Below the pieces are notes generated by a model. That model did not search any database, had not been told where the DNA came from, and saw only the letters and a program-made list of their open reading frames with translations. The position numbers and the translations under genes were made by a program. Shown piece after piece: positions 21,736 through 36,433 of a DNA stretch of 64,000 bases (the first letter of the stretch is position 1; each line of letters opens with the position of its first letter). This DNA is from the human T2T-CHM13v2.0 reference genome, Homo sapiens, in NCBI RefSeq assembly GCF_009914755.1, contig NC_060925.1; one strand, 5' to 3'.

Positions 21736-22495
21736 CACGTGGAGAGAGGGTGAATCTTCCATGACAGACGAGATCCCGGGAGAAAGGTCCTCCCTGCTGC
21801 CACAGTTGAGCGGCAGGGGGGCTGTGGAGGGGCTACGCTGCAGGAAGCGTGACATGAACTAACTCTCTTAGAAAGTAATTCCTGCCCCGTCCTCCCAGGG
21901 AGCTGACCTCTGTGCCCACAGGACCCTGCAAAATTGAGAATATGGAGAGGTTCCTGGGCACCAAGCTGGAGGGGGTGTCCAGACAGATGGGAGGGTGGTA
22001 CTCTGCACCCCCGCTCCATGCAGCTCTGACCTCGAGAGCCGCCTCAGCCCGCCCGGCCCCTCGAGAGCCGCCTCGGCCCTCCCAGCCTTCCTACAGCTCA
22101 GAAAATGCTCCAGTGGAGGTTGGGGAAGAGGGGAATTCAGGGAAGGCCACACCCGCACCACACCAGACCCAGCTCTCTCCCCCTTCCCTCCCGCAGCTTG
22201 AGGCGCAGGCCCCAAAGCCACAGGGTGTCCCTCTGCAGCGCCATGGAGGGAGTCCTAGAGGTTTCAGTGGCTCCCAGGAGAGGAGATGGAACTAAAAGCT
22301 TGAAAATGGGATTTTCCTGGGAGATCATGGATGTGAGGTCACAGTATTCACAGAACTCTCTGGAACCAGGGCGGCCCTCTAGGCTGCAGAGGGGACACCT
22401 CAGCTCTGTAATGGCTTTGCAGACACTGGACACAAGGAGTCCTGCCCTGCTCTGAAGAGATGACCGTGCCCCTGAGATCAGAACCCTCTGTCTAT

Positions 22496-22789
<294 letters not shown>

Positions 22790-23372: not shown

Positions 23373-23903
<531 letters not shown>

Positions 23904-24600
23904 CTAAGAAATCCCGGGGGTCGGGGGATGAGCCCCCCTTGCTGTCTGAATCGAGGCCTTCCCTTGAGAAGAATGTAGCTGGCGGAGGAGGCTCCTGGTG
24001 CCTTTCGTGCCAAGCGCACACAGACCCCTGAGTTGAGCTGTCCAGCTGCACCAGAAGGCCCTTTTCTGCAGTGAATTGGTGGTGCGTCTGCTGGAGGTAG
24101 CTGTGCCAGAGACAGGGAGGAGGAGCTGGGATTGGCATCCTCAGCAGCCTCTGCTGCTACCTGGGGCTCCACTTCCCCTCTGAACCGCAAGGCAAGGGCC
24201 ATGCACCTCCCTCTGTTTTGACCAAGCAAATGCCCACTGTCATGGCTGAGTCCTGGTTCTGTGGCACCATGGCCTTCCGCCCTGTGGAACCCTGATGAGG
24301 TATTTGGTGGGCATCAGCCATGTGTCTGTACCCAACACAGATGAGGGTGATGCCCATCCCCCAAGCCCACCTCTCCACACAGTCGGCCGCGTGGACAGAC
24401 AGACCCTTTCCTTTGTGACAGCTAGCCAGGGAACGGGGGATTTCATTCTGCGCCAAGGCTCCAGCCTGCCCGTGTCAGGCATGACAGAGCCCAGGTGCAG
24501 GCTGCTGGGACATGCTGATGTGGTCGCCTTGCCCTCCGGGTTAACTTTCCCCTTCATCCCACAGTCCTGCTCACCGGTTGTTTGTCTTTCCGTCCATTAG

Positions 24601-24749
24601 GCAATACTGAACACTGCGCAGCTTGCAGAGGTCTCCTGGCAGCCCTCATTAGGAATTCTGTCTGGCCCCGATCAGAATACTGGAGACGAGACCACGAGAT
24701 TGATGAGTTTGCCTTGGGAGTCGGTAAGAAGGTGAAGCCAGGGGCGAAC
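24601..24749 (+). other. SPSB1: 5'UTR portion of SPSB1 exon 2 (149 nt)
   Basis: Acceptor tttgtctttccgtccattag|G at 24600/24601, branch-point-like CTCAC at 24570-24574. An alternative AG lies at 24563-24564. Confidence 0.8.
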
Positions 24750-25443
24750 ATGGGTCAGAAGGTCACTGGAGGGATCAAGACTGTGGACATGAGGGACCCC
24801 ACGTACAGGCCCCTGAAGCAGGAGCTCCAGGGTCTGGATTACTGCAAGCCCACCCGGCTGGATCTGCTACTGGACATGCCCCCTGTGTCCTATGATGTCC
24901 AGCTGCTGCATTCATGGAACAACAACGACCGATCGCTCAATGTCTTTGTGAAGGAGGACGACAAGCTCATCTTTCACCGGCATCCGGTGGCCCAGAGCAC
25001 GGACGCTATCAGGGGCAAAGTCGGGTATACCCGTGGGCTGCACGTGTGGCAGATCACGTGGGCCATGAGACAGCGGGGCACACACGCCGTGGTGGGGGTG
25101 GCGACGGCAGACGCCCCCCTGCACTCTGTCGGGTACACAACCCTCGTGGGGAATAACCACGAGTCCTGGGGCTGGGACTTGGGGCGCAACCGGCTCTACC
25201 ACGATGGCAAGAACCAGCCAAGCAAAACATACCCAGCCTTTCTGGAACCAGATGAGACATTCATTGTCCCTGACTCCTTCCTGGTAGCCCTGGACATGGA
25301 CGACGGGACTCTGAGCTTCATTGTGGATGGACAGTACATGGGAGTGGCTTTTCGGGGACTCAAGGGCAAAAAACTGTATCCTGTAGTGAGTGCCGTCTGG
25401 GGCCACTGTGAGATCCGAATGCGCTACTTGAACGGACTCGATC
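24750..25443 (+). CDS. SPSB1: SPSB1 coding exon 2: residues 1-231 plus first base of codon 232; N-terminus and B30.2/SPRY domain
   Basis: ATG at 24750 in strong Kozak context (aacATGg). Translation [21 protein letters not shown]...[27 protein letters not shown]...[23 protein letters not shown] matches SPSB1. Ends at donor C|GTAAGT (25443/25444). Confidence 0.98.
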
Positions 25444-25645
25444 GTAAGTGTCTCCTCTGCTGTCAGAGGCAATGCCCTCCCTCAGTCCCCATGGTCCTGG
25501 CTGGGCTCAGGCCAAAAGTTGATTCATTGGAACTAGAGTGTTTTGAAGACGATATTCCAGTGTATTCAGACCCTCAGAGGCAACTTTTGCATCGGGTTAA
25601 GTGAGGAATTCTACCCAGAGTCAGCTAGATTACCTAACGGTGCCT

Positions 25646-26236
25646 CATGAATGAATGGACAGATGGATGGATGATGGATGATGAATGAATAGATGGATGA
25701 ATGATTGGTTGGATGGATGGATGATGAATAGATGGATAGATGAGTGAATAATGGATGGATGCGTGTATAATGAATTGATGGATGAATGTTTGGATTGATA
25801 GATAAGTGGTTGAACAAACAGATGGATGGATGTGGGTGGATGGGTGGGTAGGGGGTGGATGAGTGTTTAGATTGATGGATGGATGAGTGGATGAACAAGT
25901 GGATGGATGAATGAGTGGATGGATAAATGAACGGATGGATGGGTGGGTGGATGGATGGATGGATGGATGAGTGGATGGATGGATGGATGAGTGGATGGAT
26001 GGATGGGTGGATGGATGGGTGGATGGATGGGTGGATGGATGAGTGGATGGATGGATGGGTGGATGGATCAGTGAATGAATGGATGGATGGATGGATGGAT
26101 AAATGAACAGGTGGATGAGTGGGTAGATGGATGGATGGATGGATGAGTGGGTGGATGGATCAGTGAATGGATGGATGAGTGGATGGATAAGCAGATAGAC
26201 TAATGAATTGATGGATAAATGGATAGATGGATGAAT
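25646..26236. repeat. Imperfect (TGGA)n array, ~590 bp
   Basis: tggatggatgga with tgaa/tggg variants. Confidence 0.95.
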
Positions 26237-28279
26237 TAATAAGTAGGTGGTCTTTGTTTCTCTGGGTGACCTGCCTCCAGGTTTGATCCTCAGTTGACCA
26301 AATTCTAGCCCAGTTGCCAGCATATCATCGAGCTGGGGTTTGTAACCTTGGGGATACTAGGGCCTCTCCGGTAAATGAATGCTAGTGACCTCTCTCACTC
26401 ATTAGACAGGCTTAGAGTCTTTCTCTTCTGCCAGAGGCTTCTGAGTGGGCTCTGAGATACAGTCCTGAGGGACTTCTTCAGTCATGAAGTTGGGGAGGAG
26501 CATGCAGATCAGAAACAGACTGAGTCAACAGCGAACTCCACCTGTCCCTTTGGGAAGGGGAGTGGCCTTTCTCAGACTGTGAATGCAGCCCATGTGTAGG
26601 GGCACCGTGCTGGTGTGGGAGGTGAAGGCTCCATGGCTGCCCAGCTGGGAGTCCGTGGTAGCAGGAGGGCCTGGCGTTGCAGAACGGCTCACCCCGTGTA
26701 CGGCCCTCTCTCAGAGTTCCTTGCCTGCATGAGTCCCTTCTACCGCCTGCAAGTCCCACGTTGGGAAGCAAGTGGGCTGGAAAGCTCCATCCACCCATGG
26801 GTTGACTGTCCTTAAAGGGCAGGTTCAGCTCAGCACCCTGAGCTCTAACCCCACCCTGCAGGCCAGGCAAGAGGCAGAGGGGGGTGAGGCCCCCCACCAG
26901 AGGTCAGGAATACAGATGCTGACTCTGTCTTGAAGTCTCCAAGCCTGCAGCTTCTCCTCCTGGAGAAGGAGGTCCTCCTCCTGCTCTTCCTCCCCCACGT
27001 CAGCCTTTGAAAGATACTGGGGAAAGTGTCGGGGTGGTTAGGCATGCGCAAACGCTTACACATTTCTCTTTGGAAGCCTCCCCGCCCCTCTTTCTCTTGG
27101 TCCTCTGCTGTGACTTTGACTGTGATGGCAGTGAGTTGACAGCCACACACGATGTCTGTGGTACAGGCTCCCAGGGCTGCTTGGTCCTCGTCTGTGCAGC
27201 CTGGCGCCCCCAGGTCATGGGACTCCTGGAAGAGGTGGGTGACCAGGCCTGCAGCCAGCAGGTAGCCTCCCCGGGGAAGTCACCTCGGAAATGGAACCAG
27301 CAGAGTGAGTTCTGTGTCTGTCTCCCTAGGTGTCAGAAATGAGTGGCACCACGTCCACAGCCAAATTTGCCTCAAACTGGGATGGCTGCAGATTGGGAGC
27401 CCTGGGCATATCCTGCCTAGGACCTAGAATCTTGAGGAGCCCTGACCCTCAGCCCTGCCTCCCTCCTCCCAGCCATGGGGTGGTCACGGAGCCAGGGAGG
27501 TTAATGTCCATTCTTTGCAGACAGACAGATGAGGGGACTGCCAGACCTGCTCTTGTTGCCTGCCCACTGAGACTGTGGGGCCCCATGAAGATTTCCAGCC
27601 CTGTGCCCTCCAGGAACATGCCCCCTGATGCTGTCATGAGCTCTGGGTTTGCACAGCTTCACGGTTATGTATCATAGCTCCAGTACAGTACACAGACCCC
27701 TGGAGTGGCTGGGAGGGGACTGGAGCCTATTTGAACAGAGGGTTCCGCCCACCCAGTCCTGGAGGTGCAGACACATGTCCTGTGAATAGGCGATTTCCTG
27801 CTTAGTTAGCTCTGCATGAGATGGGAGGTTGGATGCTTTCATAATTTTCCTTGTTTGGAAAATCCTGAAGATGTTGGGTGAGTGGGGAATACGAGAATGG
27901 GAATCAGGATTCGGGAACCGCATCTGTGAGCTGGAATCTAGATGGCCACTCAGAGCATCACAGCCGGGCGCTATTAGTCAGTGACGAGGATGCTTTTTCC
28001 TCTCCACCAGCATCAGATGCCCAGCAAGTCCTGGTCAGACATGAATGGGCCCTGGGCCACGTGGTCAGTTGACTTTAGAGGTTCCAGATTGGAAAATAGA
28101 TGTGGTCGTTCTTGGGACACCGAGCAAAACATTGGAGGGTGGGGCACTGTCACAACTCCGCTGCAGCGTGGTGATAGGGTGAGGCGCGGGTGTTAGCGCT
28201 GCCAGCCTCAACCCGCTTAACCCGACACCTCTGGACGCTTATTGAGGCAGCATCTTGTGTCTTAGGAGTGTCGTTCTGC

Positions 28280-29275
<996 letters not shown>

Positions 29276-30160: not shown

Positions 30161-32562
30161 GGATCTGTTTTCTTGGTGGCAGACCTGATCTGGGGCTTTG
30201 CTGTCTCTGTCTTGGAGGTGGAGGTAGTTCCACTCCCTGGGATATCTGGAGAATCATCAGTGTCCCCACCACCCCTGGATTCGACTTCCACGAGGGGCAG
30301 CTGTTTGTAGGGCAGCTCCAGCAGTTTGCCTGCGTGTGTGCCTTCCCGGGGGTCTCCCAGCCCACTGTCCCCTGTGGCCTCTTTCCTGCATGCCAGGCAG
30401 AACCCCCCCGCAGCAGAGTCCCGGCTTCTACACTGGGGCCGTGGCCGGGCGGAAGTAGGGGTACTGAGTTCTCGACGTTTCCCTGTGCGGCCTCCCCACT
30501 GTCCAGCCTGCTGGGGCCACAGGCCCCGTGCTCTGATTCCTCCTCAAGGCTCGAGGCACAAGGCCTTGTGCTGAGGATGCAGCCAGAGAGGCTGCTGTGT
30601 CACTCTCCCTCTCTCTCCTGGAGGGCAGGAGTGGAGATGGCCATTGCTGAGTGGGGAGACACAGGGCCTGGCCTGACCCCGGGCCTGCCCGCCACCCTCC
30701 CTGGAGATGTGGAAAGGCCTGTTTGCAAGCAGCAGGCTGGCAGGCTGTCCAGGGGGAGCCCCTGACCTTGTGGGTCCTCTGGCTCTACCCCCACTGCTTT
30801 AAAGACATCTCCCACTGAGGAGGCATCTTCCATGCAGTTCAGCATTTTCGAATTTTCTTTAACGGCTCCCAGATGGGTTTGGTGTGGTTTGTCGTGGTTG
30901 AAGGTTCAGGGAAGGTCAGCTCGTCTCCTCAAGATCAGAGCCTCCTCCCGGGTGCCTCCTTCCTGCACTCCACTCCAGCTGGACTCTGCCGGGAGCTACT
31001 CATCGGGAGACTGATACACCGCCACCAGGGCCACCCACCCTCCCTCCCTCCCTTCCTTCCTTCCTTCCATGTCGGGGAGGGGTTGTCCCAGACCCTATTC
31101 CCCACACCCTCCAGAAGTTCTGGTCATATGAGGACCGCAGGCTCTCAGAGTTTGGGGGGGATAGGGGACCAAGGGTGTCTGATCACCTAGGTGGATCTCA
31201 GGCGTCCTTCCCCAGTTGACAAGGACAAAGGCTCCACGTTGTGTTTGGCTGTGCTCTTTCGTAAGAACTGCGTAGTGTAGAGGAAAACACACACACATCC
31301 TATGATGGCCACCCGACCCGTGACATTCTAGAATCCATGTCCTGGAGCGTGGTCCCCACAAGCTGCTTGCAGGGCCAGCCACAGGAGCCATGACAGCTGT
31401 CAGCGAGGACATTGCGGAAGCCGGGGCATTCTCTGATGCGGAACATTTTTCCTTGACCTCACCGTTCTGCAGCTCGTTCACTCAGCCCGTGAACTGGGCA
31501 CAGCACCACACTCTTGAGGCTTGAGTTGGGTTGAAATCTCTCGGGGAACAGTGAGACAGTTGTGGGTTGGGGCTCTGGGGCTGTGCATGTTCACGTGGGC
31601 CACCAGGTAGCCGTTTCTCACAGAAATGTGGAAGCTGGTGCACTGTCTCTTCCAGTTCCTCAGGCTTCTGCTCCCAGAAATAGCGCCTGATTGACTTCCT
31701 GATTTCTTTGCTGCTCATTCAGCATTGCACTCTCATTCACAGAAATTATTTAAATGAATGAGCGCCTAAGCTTCCTGGGGATGGGCATAGCAGCCAGAGG
31801 CCCCAGGCCACAGTGCAGGTGCCCACCCCCTCGGTAGATTTCAGCAGGCACCTGGGTTTGTGGCTGGAGCTGGGTGCAAAGCTGGCAGCCCCCAGTCAAG
31901 AGTGTGGAGGTTGGGGAGAACTCCCTGGTACTGGTAGTGACCAGCTGAAATGGGGGCTGGGCATTTTTTCACGGCACGAAGCCCACGTCTGTTTCTGTGG
32001 CCATGCATTCTTGGTCTCTGCCCAGCCTTTGGAAAGCAGTTAGACCGGGCCCTATGCGCCATCAGTTTCCTCCTGCAAGATCAAGGAGGCGTGACCTGTT
32101 TATGTACTTGAGGACCCAGAGAAGAGACCCATTCACAGGATGCCTGGGTGACTCTGGTCCTATTTTCAGCTCATAACACATCACTGCAGCCATTCACTGC
32201 CACTTCTCTAGCCCGTCTTGGTGGATCCCATGACCCATCCCTAACTGGTTTATTCAGTGAGATCCAGAGATGGCCAGGCTGTGGCAAGTCCTCTACCCCA
32301 CACAGCTGCGTTCACAGGGGATGGATTGTGGCAGCTGGAGGGCCTCATCCCTTTGGAGTCCATGGCTCTCAGACCTTGGACCTGTAACTCTCACCTCCCC
32401 AAGCCCATTTCCCTATCTGTAGGTTGGGGTCACAGTCCCCATCAGGCACACGACTGGTGCCCCACAGGCCATGGCTGGGGCTGGGGCTGCGGTGTCAGCC
32501 ACTCAAAATAAGGCACTGGATGGAGCTGGGGGCTCATGTGGGCCTCTGCAGTTTTAGAAAAT

Positions 32563-32857
32563 TTTTTTTTTTTTGGAGATGGAGTCTCATTCTGTCACCC
32601 AGGCTGTAGTGCAGTGGCGCAATCTCAGCTCACTGCAAACCTCTGCCTCCCAGGTTCAAGCAATCCTCCTGCCTCAAACTCCCAAGTAGCTGGGACTACA
32701 GGCATGCACGACCACACCCAGCTAATTTTTGTATTTTTAATAGAGATGAGGTTTTGCCACACTGGCCAGGCTGGTCTCAAACTCCTGACCTCAGGTGATC
32801 ACCCACCTCGGCCTCCCAAAGTGCTGGGATTACAGGCATAAGCCACCGCGTCCAGCC
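32563..32857 (-). mobile_element. AluS
   Basis: Full dimer. Confidence 0.95.
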
Positions 32858-33669
32858 TAGAAACATTTCTTCATGGGTTGATTGGAAACCCGTTACACCA
32901 AGAGGGTAGTGACTGAACTCCCTCTCAGCCCTCACTGCTGCAGCCTGGCAGGGCTCTTGGGCCACATTCAGTGGCTCTTGGAGCTTTCTCAGGTGCTTTC
33001 CAGCCACGAGGGAGAGCCCCTCCACTTTCCGGCGGGGGCTGAGCCACATTCTCCCGGGAGGGAGCTCAGGGCAGCCCAGACCCCTTGGCCCTGATGCAGG
33101 CCAGATGCAGGCGCGCTCCCAAGCAGAGAAGAGAACACACCTGCAAATTCCCCACTCCTCTGTGCAGAAGACCTACTCCCGACAGCCAGGCCAGACCACA
33201 GGCTGCGATAAGCACTTCTGGCCTTCAGGATCTTGGCTGCATGGGACTTTGGGGAGAATCTGGTCTGGATTCCGTGTCTTACAGATGGGGAAACAAGTCC
33301 GGGCAGACGGAGGGATGTGCTCCAGGTCAGGCTGCGGGGCAGGGTCTGGAGTCACCAGGCTGGGTGTTTTACCCGAGGGAAACCCAACCCTGTGAGGAGC
33401 CGGGTGGGTGGAACCCAGTCCCACCCCATCACGAGGGGTCTGTGGGATCCTTGACCTTAAAGAACCCAAGGTTATTTCATTCCTCCATTCGTCTCCAATC
33501 AGAGCTCCTCTTAATCATCCTAAGCTGGCCACGAAAGGCCCCCTTTCAAAATTCTCCATTAAAAATACAGAACATTTCAGTTCCTTGTCAGGAGCTGTGG
33601 CTGTGACCGTCCATGGGGGATGAAGAGCAGTGGTCCCTCTTCTTTTGTTTATTTATTTTTTCAGTTTTG

Positions 33670-34014
<345 letters not shown>

Positions 34015-34022
34015 TGTTTTCA

Positions 34023-34277
34023 TTTTTGAGACAAGGTCTCTGTTACGCAGGCTGGAATACAGTGGCACAATCACAGCTTACTGCAGCCTTGACCTCCTGG
34101 GCCCAACCGATCCTCTCGCCTCAGTCTCCCAAGTCCTGGCTGATTTTTATTTTTTGTAGCGATGAGGTCTCCCTATGTTGCTCAGGCTGGTCTCAAACTC
34201 CTGGGCTCAAGCAGTCTTCTGTCCTTGGCCTCCCAAAGTGCTGGGATTACAGGTATGAGCCACTGTGCCTGACCTGG
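34023..34277 (-). mobile_element. AluJ, partly deleted
   Basis: ctgcagccttgacctcctggg and ctcctgggctcaagc J-type motifs. Confidence 0.85.
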
Positions 34278-34339
34278 TCCCTCTTCTTTTAAAGCTTGGG
34301 GTTTAGTAAATGCATTATCAAGCCTAAGGTCCATTCTTC

Positions 34340-34515
34340 TATTTTGTAACAGCTTTACTGAGCTATAATTCACATACCTTACAATTCACCCATTAAAGTA
34401 TCCAATTCAGTGGCCTCTTGCGTGGTGAGATGTAGGAAACAATTTTAGAACATTTTCATCACCCCAAAAAGAAACCCTATACCCATAAGCAGCCTCTCTC
34501 CATTCTGCCATGCCC
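34340..34515 (-). mobile_element. L1M 3' end fragment
   Basis: aacagctttactgagctataattcacatac...aacattttcatcacccc. Confidence 0.7.
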
Positions 34516-35319
34516 CACCCGTAGTGTTTGGTCTTCAGTAATTGATTTTCGTATATTTGAGACACATTGGTGAATATTAAAGAACTTTAATCCACTTTTT
34601 ACTGGTAGGATGGAGTTTTGCGGGTTCCTTTTAGTTTTGGGGGCTATTTTGCTCACAAAGGAGTCTCAAAGTCAAGGGGAGACCGTGGATGAAGCCTCAG
34701 ATCCATTAGTTTCAGGGCTTTCCATCTGCAGAACAGCGTGGGCGGCCCCACGAAGGTCCAGGTGTGCTCACTCCTACCTGGTTTCAGGAAAGAGAGCAAA
34801 GAGGGGTCTGCTCTGGCGAAGCGGGCGAGCAGGGCCGCGCAGCCTTCCAACGCTCAGAAGCCTTGGAAGGCATGAGTTTCAGACTCCTGAGATCTGAAGC
34901 TGACGGCTCATCTGAGATGCAGCTGAATGAACTCAGCCTCCTTTGTAGGAAGGCAAGGCTGGGCGCTCTGGGAACACAGGATGGAGGTGCCTGGGAGGCT
35001 GCAGCTGGAAGCGCTCTGTAACCCTGGGGCCTGAGGCAGCTCTGCCCAAGTTCCCCTGGCTGTGAGAGAGCCCCATGTGCCTGGGGCAGTTGCGGGGAGA
35101 AGGCCCAGGCAGCTCTGGGGGATCAGCTGAAACTGGGCTGGCATTTCCAGTTTCCTGGGGCCTGAGCTTGGCCTGGGCCCTCAGCCTCACTGTCAGACAG
35201 AAGCACAGACACCCGGGGTTTCTCTGTCTCCATGTGGCACAGAAATGACACCTTCAGGCCGTGGGGCCAGCCAGGCCTGTCACGTATGATTCAGGACAGG
35301 GTTTGCCATGTCTTCCTTT

Positions 35320-35780
<461 letters not shown>

Positions 35781-36305: not shown

Positions 36306-36433
36306 CCGAGCCGCTGCCGCTCATGGATTTGTGCCGTCGCTCGGTGCGCCTGGCCCTGGGGAGGGAGCGCCTGGGGGAGATCCACACGCTGCCGCTGCCG
36401 GCTTCCCTCAAGGCCTACCTCCTCTACCAGTGA
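36306..36433 (+). CDS. SPSB1: SPSB1 last coding exon: SOCS box (residues 232-273) and TGA stop
   Basis: Acceptor tttctctgtctccccag|CC. Phase-1 join gives PEPLPLMDLCRRSVRLALGRERLGEIHTLPLPASLKAYLLYQ*, with BC box PLMDLCRRSV and Cul5 box LPLP. 694+128=822 nt, 273 aa. Not in the ORF track because it is a short spliced exon. Confidence 0.97.

What the first reader, a model, noticed from the sequence alone, without database searches (positions are those of the whole stretch)
24601..25443. Circularised exon 2 would be an infinite ORF encoding SOCS-box-less SPRY concatemers
Seen: the exon is 843 nt = 281 codons and phase 1 at both ends. The back-splice codon is C|GC (Arg). The 5'UTR part reads [49 protein letters not shown] with no stop, straight into the native ATG. 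Each lap would give SPSB1 1-231 (the whole substrate-binding SPRY domain) plus a 50-aa linker, and never the Elongin BC/Cul5 SOCS box, which lies in exon 3. Known: stop-less circles of 3n length can undergo rolling-circle translation. Inference: a multivalent decoy that could shield SPSB1 substrates such as iNOS from ubiquitination. Caveat: 49 stop-free codons (~0.1 under uniform codon use) times 3n length (1/3) has roughly a few-percent chance probability, and nothing here shows expression.
Basis: partly seen in the sequence, partly recalled or inferred. Interest (0 to 1): 0.8.

Follow-up and report, generated by a model that had tools for sequence, protein, structure and literature searches.

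The report
Stop-free SPSB1 exon 2 circle: coincidence
If SPSB1 exon 2 were spliced into a circle it would indeed read as an endless frame for the substrate-binding half of the protein, but this looks like an ordinary coincidence of exon length rather than a selected device, and nothing shows such a protein is made.

Summary
The arithmetic is right. Exon 24601-25443 is 843 nt (3n) with AG/GT flanks. Its 149-nt 5'UTR part has no stop in the ATG frame, and the back-splice codon would be Arg. One lap gives 281 aa (31.8 kDa): SPSB1 residues 1-231, equal to the crystallised SPRY domain, plus 50 other residues. The whole SOCS box lies in exon 3.

It is not clearly more than chance. The joint probability is about 3-7%. 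The open frame runs on into both introns. The UTR part has no detectable similarity to the paralogs. The homologous ATG exons of SPSB4 and SPSB2 carry in-frame stops 2 and 5 codons before the ATG, and no candidate length is 3n. Published work puts host-frame rolling-circle ORFs in 14% of full-length human circRNAs, with products mostly degraded.

The only circle I found in print is rat circSpsb1-2.2. I found no human one and no evidence of translation. Inverted Alus across the exon make back-splicing plausible. Mammalian conservation could not be tested. Verdict: real sequence property, ordinary kind, decoy function unsupported.

The parts
24601..25443 (+). SPSB1 exon 2, 843 nt. It is the only internal exon of a three-exon gene, so it is the only annotated exon that can back-splice on itself.
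   Evidence: Hub annotation; AG acceptor and GTAAGT donor read; length and 3n.
24601..24749 (+). 5'UTR part of the exon: 149 nt, 49 stop-free codons in the ATG frame plus 2 bases that would complete the junction codon.
   Evidence: No Pfam family. No relative among proteins of 154-490 aa (17 candidates, none at E<=10). No DNA similarity to SPSB4 or SPSB2, whose matches start at query base 149 and 371.
24750..25443 (+). Coding part of exon 2: 694 nt, i.e. 231 codons plus 1 base (phase-1 donor). It encodes the N-terminal helices and the SPRY domain.
24703..24735 (+). Short upstream ORF (ATG plus 9 codons, then TGA) in the +1 frame of the UTR part. It ends 14 nt before the main ATG.
24519..25604 (+). 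Genomic stop-to-stop open frame of 361 codons containing the exon. It runs 82 nt into intron 1 and 161 nt into intron 2.
36306..36433 (+). Coding part of exon 3: the complete SOCS box and the stop codon. It would be absent from any exon 2 circle.
23419..23678 (.). Nearest upstream Alu-like repeat (0.9 kb from the exon). It is inverted relative to three repeats in intron 2.
   Evidence: 79-86% identity over 265-274 nt.
22491..22789 (.). Second upstream Alu-like repeat (1.8 kb from the exon), inverted relative to repeats in intron 2.
28279..28581 (.). Nearest downstream repeat with inverted partners in intron 1 (2.8 kb from the exon). Its partners start at 201, 2201, 2956, 5115, 10574, 12654 and 16813.
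32557..35730 (.). Cluster of three downstream Alu-like repeats (about 32557-32861, 33720-34101, 35433-35730), inverted relative to the two nearest upstream repeats.

Best explanation
Exon 2 of SPSB1 is an ordinary exon that carries the start codon, and its endless circular frame is a coincidence. The SPSB family has a conserved phase-1 intron exactly at the SPRY/SOCS-box boundary. In SPSB1 the untranslated piece in front of the ATG happens to be 149 nt (2 mod 3) and happens to lack stops in that frame.

A single-exon circle is probably made at a low level as a by-product of transcription. The exon is long, and it sits between a roughly 62-kb and a 10.9-kb intron that hold many inverted Alu pairs. 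The rat gene gives an exon2-exon2 back-splice.

If the circle matters at all, the likeliest effect is through the RNA: each back-splice removes the ATG exon from a would-be mRNA. Any protein read from it would be scarce and short-lived.

Shown: the sequence arithmetic, the domain split, the paralog comparison and the repeat layout. Inferred: that the human circle exists, that it is rare, and that it is not productively translated.
For: 1. The chance of the property is 2.8-6.9%. Host-frame rolling-circle ORFs are reported for 14% of full-length human circRNAs (PMC9242994, passages).
2. The open frame is not bounded by the exon. It continues 27 codons into the upstream intron and 53 into the downstream one.
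3. The UTR part shows no similarity to the paralogs at DNA level. The SPSB4 match starts at query base 149, the SPSB2 match at 371. Its 49-aa reading has no Pfam hit and no database relative.
4. SPSB4 has the same 694-nt coding part and phase-1 donor, but in-frame TGA and TAG at 2 and 13 codons before the ATG. All 3 of 3 candidate acceptors give a length of 1 mod 3.
5. SPSB2 has an in-frame TAG 5 codons before the ATG. Its coding part of 664 nt combined with the 5 candidate UTR lengths listed (12, 85, 96, 379, 381 nt) never gives a 3n exon (sums are mine).
6. No peptide across an SPSB1 back-splice is in the mass-spectrometry table of PMC9242994. 'SPSB1' has 0 occurrences in the 4 spreadsheets held.
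7. The same paper reports that rolling-circle products are mostly degraded by the proteasome.
8. For existence of a circle: rat circSpsb1-2.2 (PMC12608004). Also 33 inverted matches, 30 of them 100 nt or longer, lie between the 24.6 kb of intron 1 in the window and intron 2, against 45 direct ones.
Against: A 3-7% coincidence is still a minority outcome, and one lap matches a complete, independently folding binding domain unusually neatly.

The native ATG has a strong context. The UTR part holds AAGAAG 19 nt before the ATG and two copies of AATACT. PMC9242994 names AAGAAG an IRES-like hexamer and used AATACT repeats in its enriched-element test constructs.

DRACH motifs number 22 against 14.5 +/- 3.4 in shuffles.

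The rat circle rises in ischaemic striatum, a setting where iNOS control could matter (inference).

The paralogs split long ago, so their failure says little about selection within mammals, which I could not test.

The missing mass-spectrometry evidence is weak. The junction codon is Arg, so trypsin cuts exactly at the junction.
Confidence: 0.75

Rival explanations
1. The human exon 2 circle is made, ribosomes start at the native ATG without a cap and go round without stopping. The resulting SPRY-only monomers or concatemers hold iNOS, the TGF-beta type II receptor or other substrates away from the Cullin-5 ligase.
For: The frame is open round the circle and a start codon in good context is present. 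Each lap is a whole SPRY domain without the SOCS box. SOCS-box-less SPSB2 and SPSB1 bind substrates but do not promote their degradation. Rolling-circle translation of natural circles has precedents: circEGFR, circNFIB, circMAPT (PMC11724312, passages) and circPSAP, circPFAS, circABHD12. A rat exon 2 circle exists.
Against: No human circle in print: 'circSPSB1' anywhere gave 1 paper, on rat, and six spelling variants gave 0. SPSB1+circRNA gave 22 papers; the 4 I opened name SPSB1 only as an mRNA or lncRNA host gene or a microRNA target, never as a circRNA host, and 18 were seen as titles only. SPSB1+hsa_circ gave 3 papers, of which 1 was opened.

SPSB1 rows read 'NA NA' in three supplementary tables of Salzman 2013; I did not read the column legends. 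SPSB1 is absent from the 3 held supplements of Maass 2017 and from the junction-peptide table of PMC9242994.

The paralogs lack the property. A decoy must reach amounts comparable with its targets, whereas circRNA-coded proteins are reported as low in abundance and unstable.
Confidence: 0.03
2. The circle exists and acts as RNA only. It would compete with linear splicing, so that each back-splice costs one translatable SPSB1 mRNA because the ATG exon is removed. Or it would bind microRNAs or proteins. The open frame is irrelevant.
For: Exon 2 holds the start codon and is the only exon that can circularise (hub annotation). The flanking inverted Alus allow it. The rat authors place circSpsb1-2.2 in a microRNA competition network.
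Against: There is no measurement of the circle-to-linear ratio in any species in what I could read. Sponge networks of this kind are predictions only.
Confidence: 0.12
3. The stop-free UTR frame serves the linear mRNA. Initiation at an in-frame near-cognate codon upstream would give an N-terminally extended SPSB1, and the circle is beside the point.
For: In-frame CTG, TTG (G at -3 and +4) and GTG lie 38, 12 and 6 codons before the ATG. The first 172 nt after the annotated gene start hold no stop triplet in any frame and no ATG. If exon 1 ends at the candidate donor there, the whole 5'UTR is open in frame.
Against: The exon 1 donor is my guess, not annotation. The 49-aa reading has no relatives and no similarity to the paralogs. 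G+C-rich leaders lack stops by composition alone.
Confidence: 0.04

Closest known systems
circEGFR with its infinite ORF (rolling-translated EGFR), and circNFIB, circMAPT 12-7 and 12-10, as tabulated in the review PMC11724312 (passages)
   Same: A back-spliced circle whose length is a multiple of three and that has no stop in the host frame, so translation can go round repeatedly.
   Different: Those circles have experimental support listed in the review (mass spectrometry, reporters, polysomes). The SPSB1 circle has none, and none is reported in human. circEGFR is a 249-nt two-exon circle from inside the coding region. The SPSB1 circle would be one 843-nt exon that brings its own ATG and 149 nt of leader.
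Rolling-circle ORF class of Fan et al. 2022 (PMC9242994): circPSAP, circPFAS, circABHD12
   Same: It meets their computational definition of an rcORF: no stop when the circle sequence is repeated four times.
   Different: Their cases have junction peptides and tagged reporters. SPSB1 is not in their tables. They find such products mostly unstable.
Exon 2 circles that use the host start codon: circZNF609, circAXIN1, circPLCE1 (PMC11724312)
   Same: A single-exon circle of exon 2 that contains the native ATG. The product is an N-terminal part of the host protein, and circAXIN1 acts by competition.
   Different: Those frames end at a stop soon after the junction, giving one defined protein. Here no stop exists.
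circFBXW7-185aa (PMC11724312)
   Same: A circle from a gene for a ubiquitin-ligase substrate receptor, giving a truncated protein that acts by competition.
   Different: The FBXW7 product lacks the substrate-binding WD40 part. The SPSB1 product would keep the substrate-binding part and lose the ligase-docking part. Its ORF is finite.
Engineered SOCS-box deletion mutants: SPSB2-deltaSB (PMC2911665) and SPSB1-deltaSOCS (PMC10401548)
   Same: Same domain content as one lap. They bind substrate and do not drive degradation.
   Different: They are laboratory constructs, monomeric, over-expressed from cDNA, without the 50 extra residues. Neither passage I read shows that they protect substrates from the endogenous ligase.

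Membership tests
circRNA with rolling-circle (infinite) ORF | A covalently closed, back-spliced RNA of this exon exists in cells | not testable with these tools
   No RNA data here. In print only rat circSpsb1-2.2. Human searches were negative. Supplements checked.
circRNA with rolling-circle (infinite) ORF | Circle length is a multiple of three | tested here: met
   843 nt.
circRNA with rolling-circle (infinite) ORF | No stop codon in one frame over a full lap, junction included | tested here: met
   0 stops in the ATG frame, 10 in each other frame. The junction codon reads Arg.
circRNA with rolling-circle (infinite) ORF | A start codon in that frame | tested here: met
   Native ATG at 24750, with A at -3 and G at +4.
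circRNA with rolling-circle (infinite) ORF | Evidence of translation: junction-spanning footprints or peptides, or a concatemer ladder | not testable with these tools
   The only indirect look was negative: SPSB1 has 0 occurrences in the 4 held spreadsheets of PMC9242994, including its junction-peptide table.
SPSB family (SPRY domain plus SOCS box receptor of Cullin-5 ligases) | SPRY/B30.2 substrate-binding domain | tested here: met
   PF00622 at residues 98-221, E 8e-20. Solved SPSB1 chains 3f2o and 2jk9 cover 18-231 and 24-231.
SPSB family (SPRY domain plus SOCS box receptor of Cullin-5 ligases) | C-terminal SOCS box | tested here: met
   Met for the gene: PF07525 positions 1-39 of 39 in the exon 3 peptide. 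Not met for the circle product, which cannot contain exon 3.
circRNA-encoded competitor of its host protein | Keeps a binding surface of the host protein and lacks its effector part | tested here: met
   By sequence only.
circRNA-encoded competitor of its host protein | The product accumulates and competes with the host protein in cells | not testable with these tools
   No data.
Selected (conserved) coding feature | 3n length and open leader frame shared by paralogous ATG exons | tested here: not met
   SPSB4 has stops at -2 and -13 codons, and lengths are 1 mod 3 at 3 of 3 candidate acceptors. SPSB2 has a stop at -5 codons.
Selected (conserved) coding feature | 3n length and open leader frame shared by mammalian orthologs | not testable with these tools
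   The genome tool states that this genome has no relatives held. The other collections are prokaryotic, viral or plasmid.

The most novel reading that the evidence does not exclude
Human SPSB1 exon 2 circularises when the gene is induced in inflammation. It is then read round and round from its own ATG, giving SPRY-only chains in roughly 32-kDa steps that cannot dock to Elongin BC/Cullin-5. These chains would buffer iNOS, the TGF-beta type II receptor and other SPSB substrates against degradation: a built-in brake in which the same gene supplies both a ligase receptor and its antagonist.
Probability: 0.03. Interest if true: 0.6.

Novelty: new member of a known kind. Interest (0 to 1): 0.2.

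Why it matters
If the decoy were real, it would add a natural antagonist to the control of nitric-oxide output and TGF-beta signalling. It would also be one of the few rolling-circle products with a clear biochemical rationale.

As things stand the value is mainly cautionary. A stop-less 3n circle is expected in a few percent of start-codon exons and is reported for about one in seven known circles. The property alone therefore does not single out a gene. The neat domain split simply follows the conserved intron at the SPRY/SOCS-box boundary.

Tried and rejected
1. hsa_circ_0002577 as an SPSB1 circle: rejected. The paper names SPSB1 only as a candidate microRNA target. The follow-up search on that name was therefore wasted.
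2. Three other SPSB1+circRNA papers (mouse, goat, duck) name SPSB1 only as an mRNA or lncRNA host gene, not as a circRNA host.
3. Further detail on the rat circle: its name is not in the held, truncated supplement, so I have no read counts, length or coordinates.
4. Relatives of the 49-residue leader reading, in the hope of annotated N-terminal extensions in other species: none.
5. A retro-copied circle in the genome, which would carry the exon in permuted order: the exon matches only itself, SPSB4 and SPSB2.
6. Rfam over 24000-26200: 0 matches at the gathering threshold.
7. The list of 97 IRES-like hexamers: the supplement I opened was the primer table, so no proper density test was made. With 97 of 4096 hexamers counted as IRES-like, about 20 hits are expected in 843 nt by chance (my arithmetic), so single hits mean little.
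8. riboCIRC supplement: one small file, no SPSB1. This is uninformative, since it is not the database.
9. Two papers were not held.
10. Not run because the answer would not change the verdict: structure prediction of the leader peptide plus SPRY domain, complex prediction, and the large protein-representative search.

Full report
**The observation.**
- Window 24601-25443 is 843 nt, a multiple of three. It is preceded by a pyrimidine-rich tract ending in AG and followed by GTAAGT.
- The ATG is at 24750, with A at -3 and G at +4.
- Treated as a circle, the exon has 0 stops in the ATG frame and 10 in each of the other frames. The junction codon (last base plus first two bases) is Arg.
- One lap is 281 residues, 31.8 kDa.
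- In the other frames the longest open run round the circle is 73 and 87 codons, so a frameshift would end the chain within at most 87 codons.

**What one lap encodes.**
- The 231 coding residues of exon 2 hold Pfam SPRY (residues 98-221). They match the solved SPSB1 chains 3f2o (18-231) and 2jk9 (24-231), which are stand-alone SPRY constructs.
- The 41 residues coded in exon 3 cover the whole SOCS_box model, 1-39 of 39.
- The 50 extra residues per lap (the junction Arg plus the 49-residue leader reading) have no Pfam family. They have no relative among database proteins of 154-490 aa: 17 word-sharing candidates, none at E<=10.

**Is it more than chance?**
- An open run of 49 codons occurs in 9.5% of mononucleotide shuffles and 8.3% of dinucleotide shuffles of the leader. 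It occurs in 1018 of 5215 (19.5%) real 147-mers of this window with similar G+C.
- With the 1-in-3 chance of the right length, the joint probability is 2.8-6.9%.
- The genomic open frame is not bounded by the exon. It spans 24519-25604 (361 codons), running 27 codons into intron 1 and 53 into intron 2, where no coding selection can act.
- Fan et al. 2022 (PMC9242994; passages read) report that 14% of full-length human circRNAs can be translated in rolling-circle fashion in the host frame. They find the ratio of finite to rolling ORFs is about 3.4, and that the products are mostly of low abundance and degraded by the proteasome.

**Paralogs.** A search of the window's own genome found the homologous exons of SPSB4 and SPSB2, and FBXO45-like matches whose name I give from recall.
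- SPSB4 has the same 694-nt coding part and the same phase-1 donor. It has TGA 2 codons and TAG 13 codons before its ATG. All three candidate acceptors give an exon length of 1 mod 3.
- SPSB2 keeps the phase-1 donor (coding part 664 nt). It has TAG 5 codons before its ATG, and none of the five candidate leader lengths gives a 3n exon (sums are mine).
- Acceptor positions in both paralogs are my inference from sequence, not annotation. The stop next to each ATG makes the conclusion insensitive to them.
- At DNA level, similarity of SPSB1 exon 2 to SPSB4 begins at base 149, just before the ATG. The leader is not conserved between paralogs.
- Orthologs in other mammals could not be fetched, because no relatives of this genome are held. 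This is the main gap.

**Does the circle exist?**
- SPSB1 has three exons, so exon 2 is the only annotated exon with both an acceptor and a donor.
- Exon 2 is long and lies between an intron of about 62 kb (from the hub table) and one of 10,862 nt.
- Between the 24.6 kb of intron 1 inside the window and intron 2 there are 78 repeat matches: 33 inverted (30 of them 100 nt or longer) and 45 direct.
- The nearest upstream repeats (23419-23678 and 22491-22789) are inverted relative to three repeats at 32.6-35.7 kb. The repeat at 28279-28581 is inverted relative to seven upstream copies. This layout permits Alu-mediated back-splicing. Pairs within each intron would compete with the cross-exon pairs.
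- In print I found only rat circSpsb1-2.2, raised in striatum after ischaemia-reperfusion (PMC12608004, passages). That paper's naming puts the donor exon first and the acceptor exon second, so 2.2 is an exon 2 self-circle. That rat exon 2 corresponds to human exon 2 is my assumption.
- Spsb1 mRNA itself appears among the genes in that paper's network table, so the rise may simply follow induction of the host gene (inference).
- Human searches:
  - 'circSPSB1' anywhere gave 1 paper, the rat one.
  - Six spelling variants gave 0 papers.
  - SPSB1 with circRNA gave 22 papers. The 4 I opened name SPSB1 only as an mRNA or lncRNA host gene or a microRNA target, never as a circRNA host, and 18 were seen as titles only.
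  - SPSB1 with hsa_circ gave 3 papers, of which 1 was opened.
- Supplements:
  - In Salzman 2013 the SPSB1 rows read 'NA NA' in three tables; I did not read the legends.
  - Maass 2017 has none in the 3 held files.
  - The search tool does not cover supplements in general, and circRNA databases could not be queried.

**Translation.**
- There is no evidence. SPSB1 has 0 occurrences in the four held spreadsheets of PMC9242994, one of which is the table of peptides across back-splice junctions.
- This negative is weak. The junction codon is Arg, so trypsin cuts at the junction and leaves only one residue beyond it.
- Features that could favour cap-independent starts are present but unremarkable. 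AAGAAG, named an IRES-like hexamer, lies 19 nt before the ATG. AATACT, used in an enriched-element construct, occurs twice. There are 22 DRACH motifs against 14.5 +/- 3.4 in shuffles.
- The enriched elements in that study are A+U-rich, whereas the exon is 57.5% G+C.

**The decoy idea.**
- SPSB2 without its SOCS box still co-precipitates iNOS but does not enhance its degradation (PMC2911665, passages).
- SPSB1-deltaSOCS binds the TGF-beta type II receptor strongly, gives less ubiquitination and does not shorten its half-life (PMC10401548, passages).
- A SPRY-only product would therefore bind substrate and be dead as a ligase adaptor.
- Protecting substrates needs amounts that circle-coded proteins are not reported to reach. 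I read no passage showing dominant-negative protection.
- The paper most likely to show this (Nishiya 2011) is not held.

**Comparison with known cases.** The review PMC11724312 (passages) lists several relevant groups:
- validated rolling-circle cases: circEGFR with an infinite ORF, circNFIB, two circMAPT forms;
- exon 2 circles that use the host ATG: circZNF609, circAXIN1, circPLCE1;
- competitor products: circFBXW7, circAXIN1, circYAP, circMAPK14.

The SPSB1 idea combines these known themes. If real, it would be a new member of a known kind.

**Verdict.** The conditional reading is correct. The functional inference is unsupported and, on the one selection test available, disfavoured. The best reading (0.75) is a coincidental property of an ordinary exon whose circle, if made, is a minor by-product. 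The decoy reading keeps about 3%.

Noticed in passing
window 24703-24735: A 10-codon upstream ORF in the +1 frame of the leader, with its ATG in a weak context. It ends at TGA 24733-24735, 14 nt before the main ATG, and could modulate SPSB1 translation on the linear mRNA.
   Followed up: no
L006 (own genome, chr1 8827400-8829400), first 172 nt after the annotated gene start: There is no stop triplet in any frame and no ATG. The first stop triplet lies inside a candidate donor (GTAGGC) at offset 172. If exon 1 ends there, the whole 5'UTR of about 321 nt is open in the ATG frame, so an N-terminal extension from a near-cognate start cannot be excluded. The exon 1 end is my guess.
   Followed up: partly
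window 24636, 24714, 24732: In-frame CTG, TTG (G at -3 and +4) and GTG lie 38, 12 and 6 codons before the ATG.
   Followed up: no
L002 (SPSB4) and L003 (SPSB2, reverse strand): The intron at the SPRY/SOCS-box boundary is phase 1 in all three paralogs, and the coding part of the ATG exon is exactly 694 nt in both SPSB1 and SPSB4. The best SPSB4 acceptor candidate gives a 153-nt leader, close to the 149 nt of SPSB1, although the leaders share no detectable sequence.
   Followed up: partly
window 25441-25443 joined to 24601-24602: The back-splice codon is Arg, so the junction is itself a trypsin site. This limits what standard shotgun proteomics could ever show for this circle.
   Followed up: partly
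window 24519-24600 and 25444-25604: The SPSB1 reading frame stays open 27 codons into intron 1 and 53 codons into intron 2. Retention of intron 2 would therefore add 53 residues before a stop instead of the SOCS box, which is another conceivable route to a SOCS-box-less protein.
   Followed up: no
window 24603, 24676, 24726: Two copies of AATACT and one AAGAAG lie in the leader part. Both motifs appear among the IRES-like elements tested or named in PMC9242994. They are expected often by chance.
   Followed up: partly
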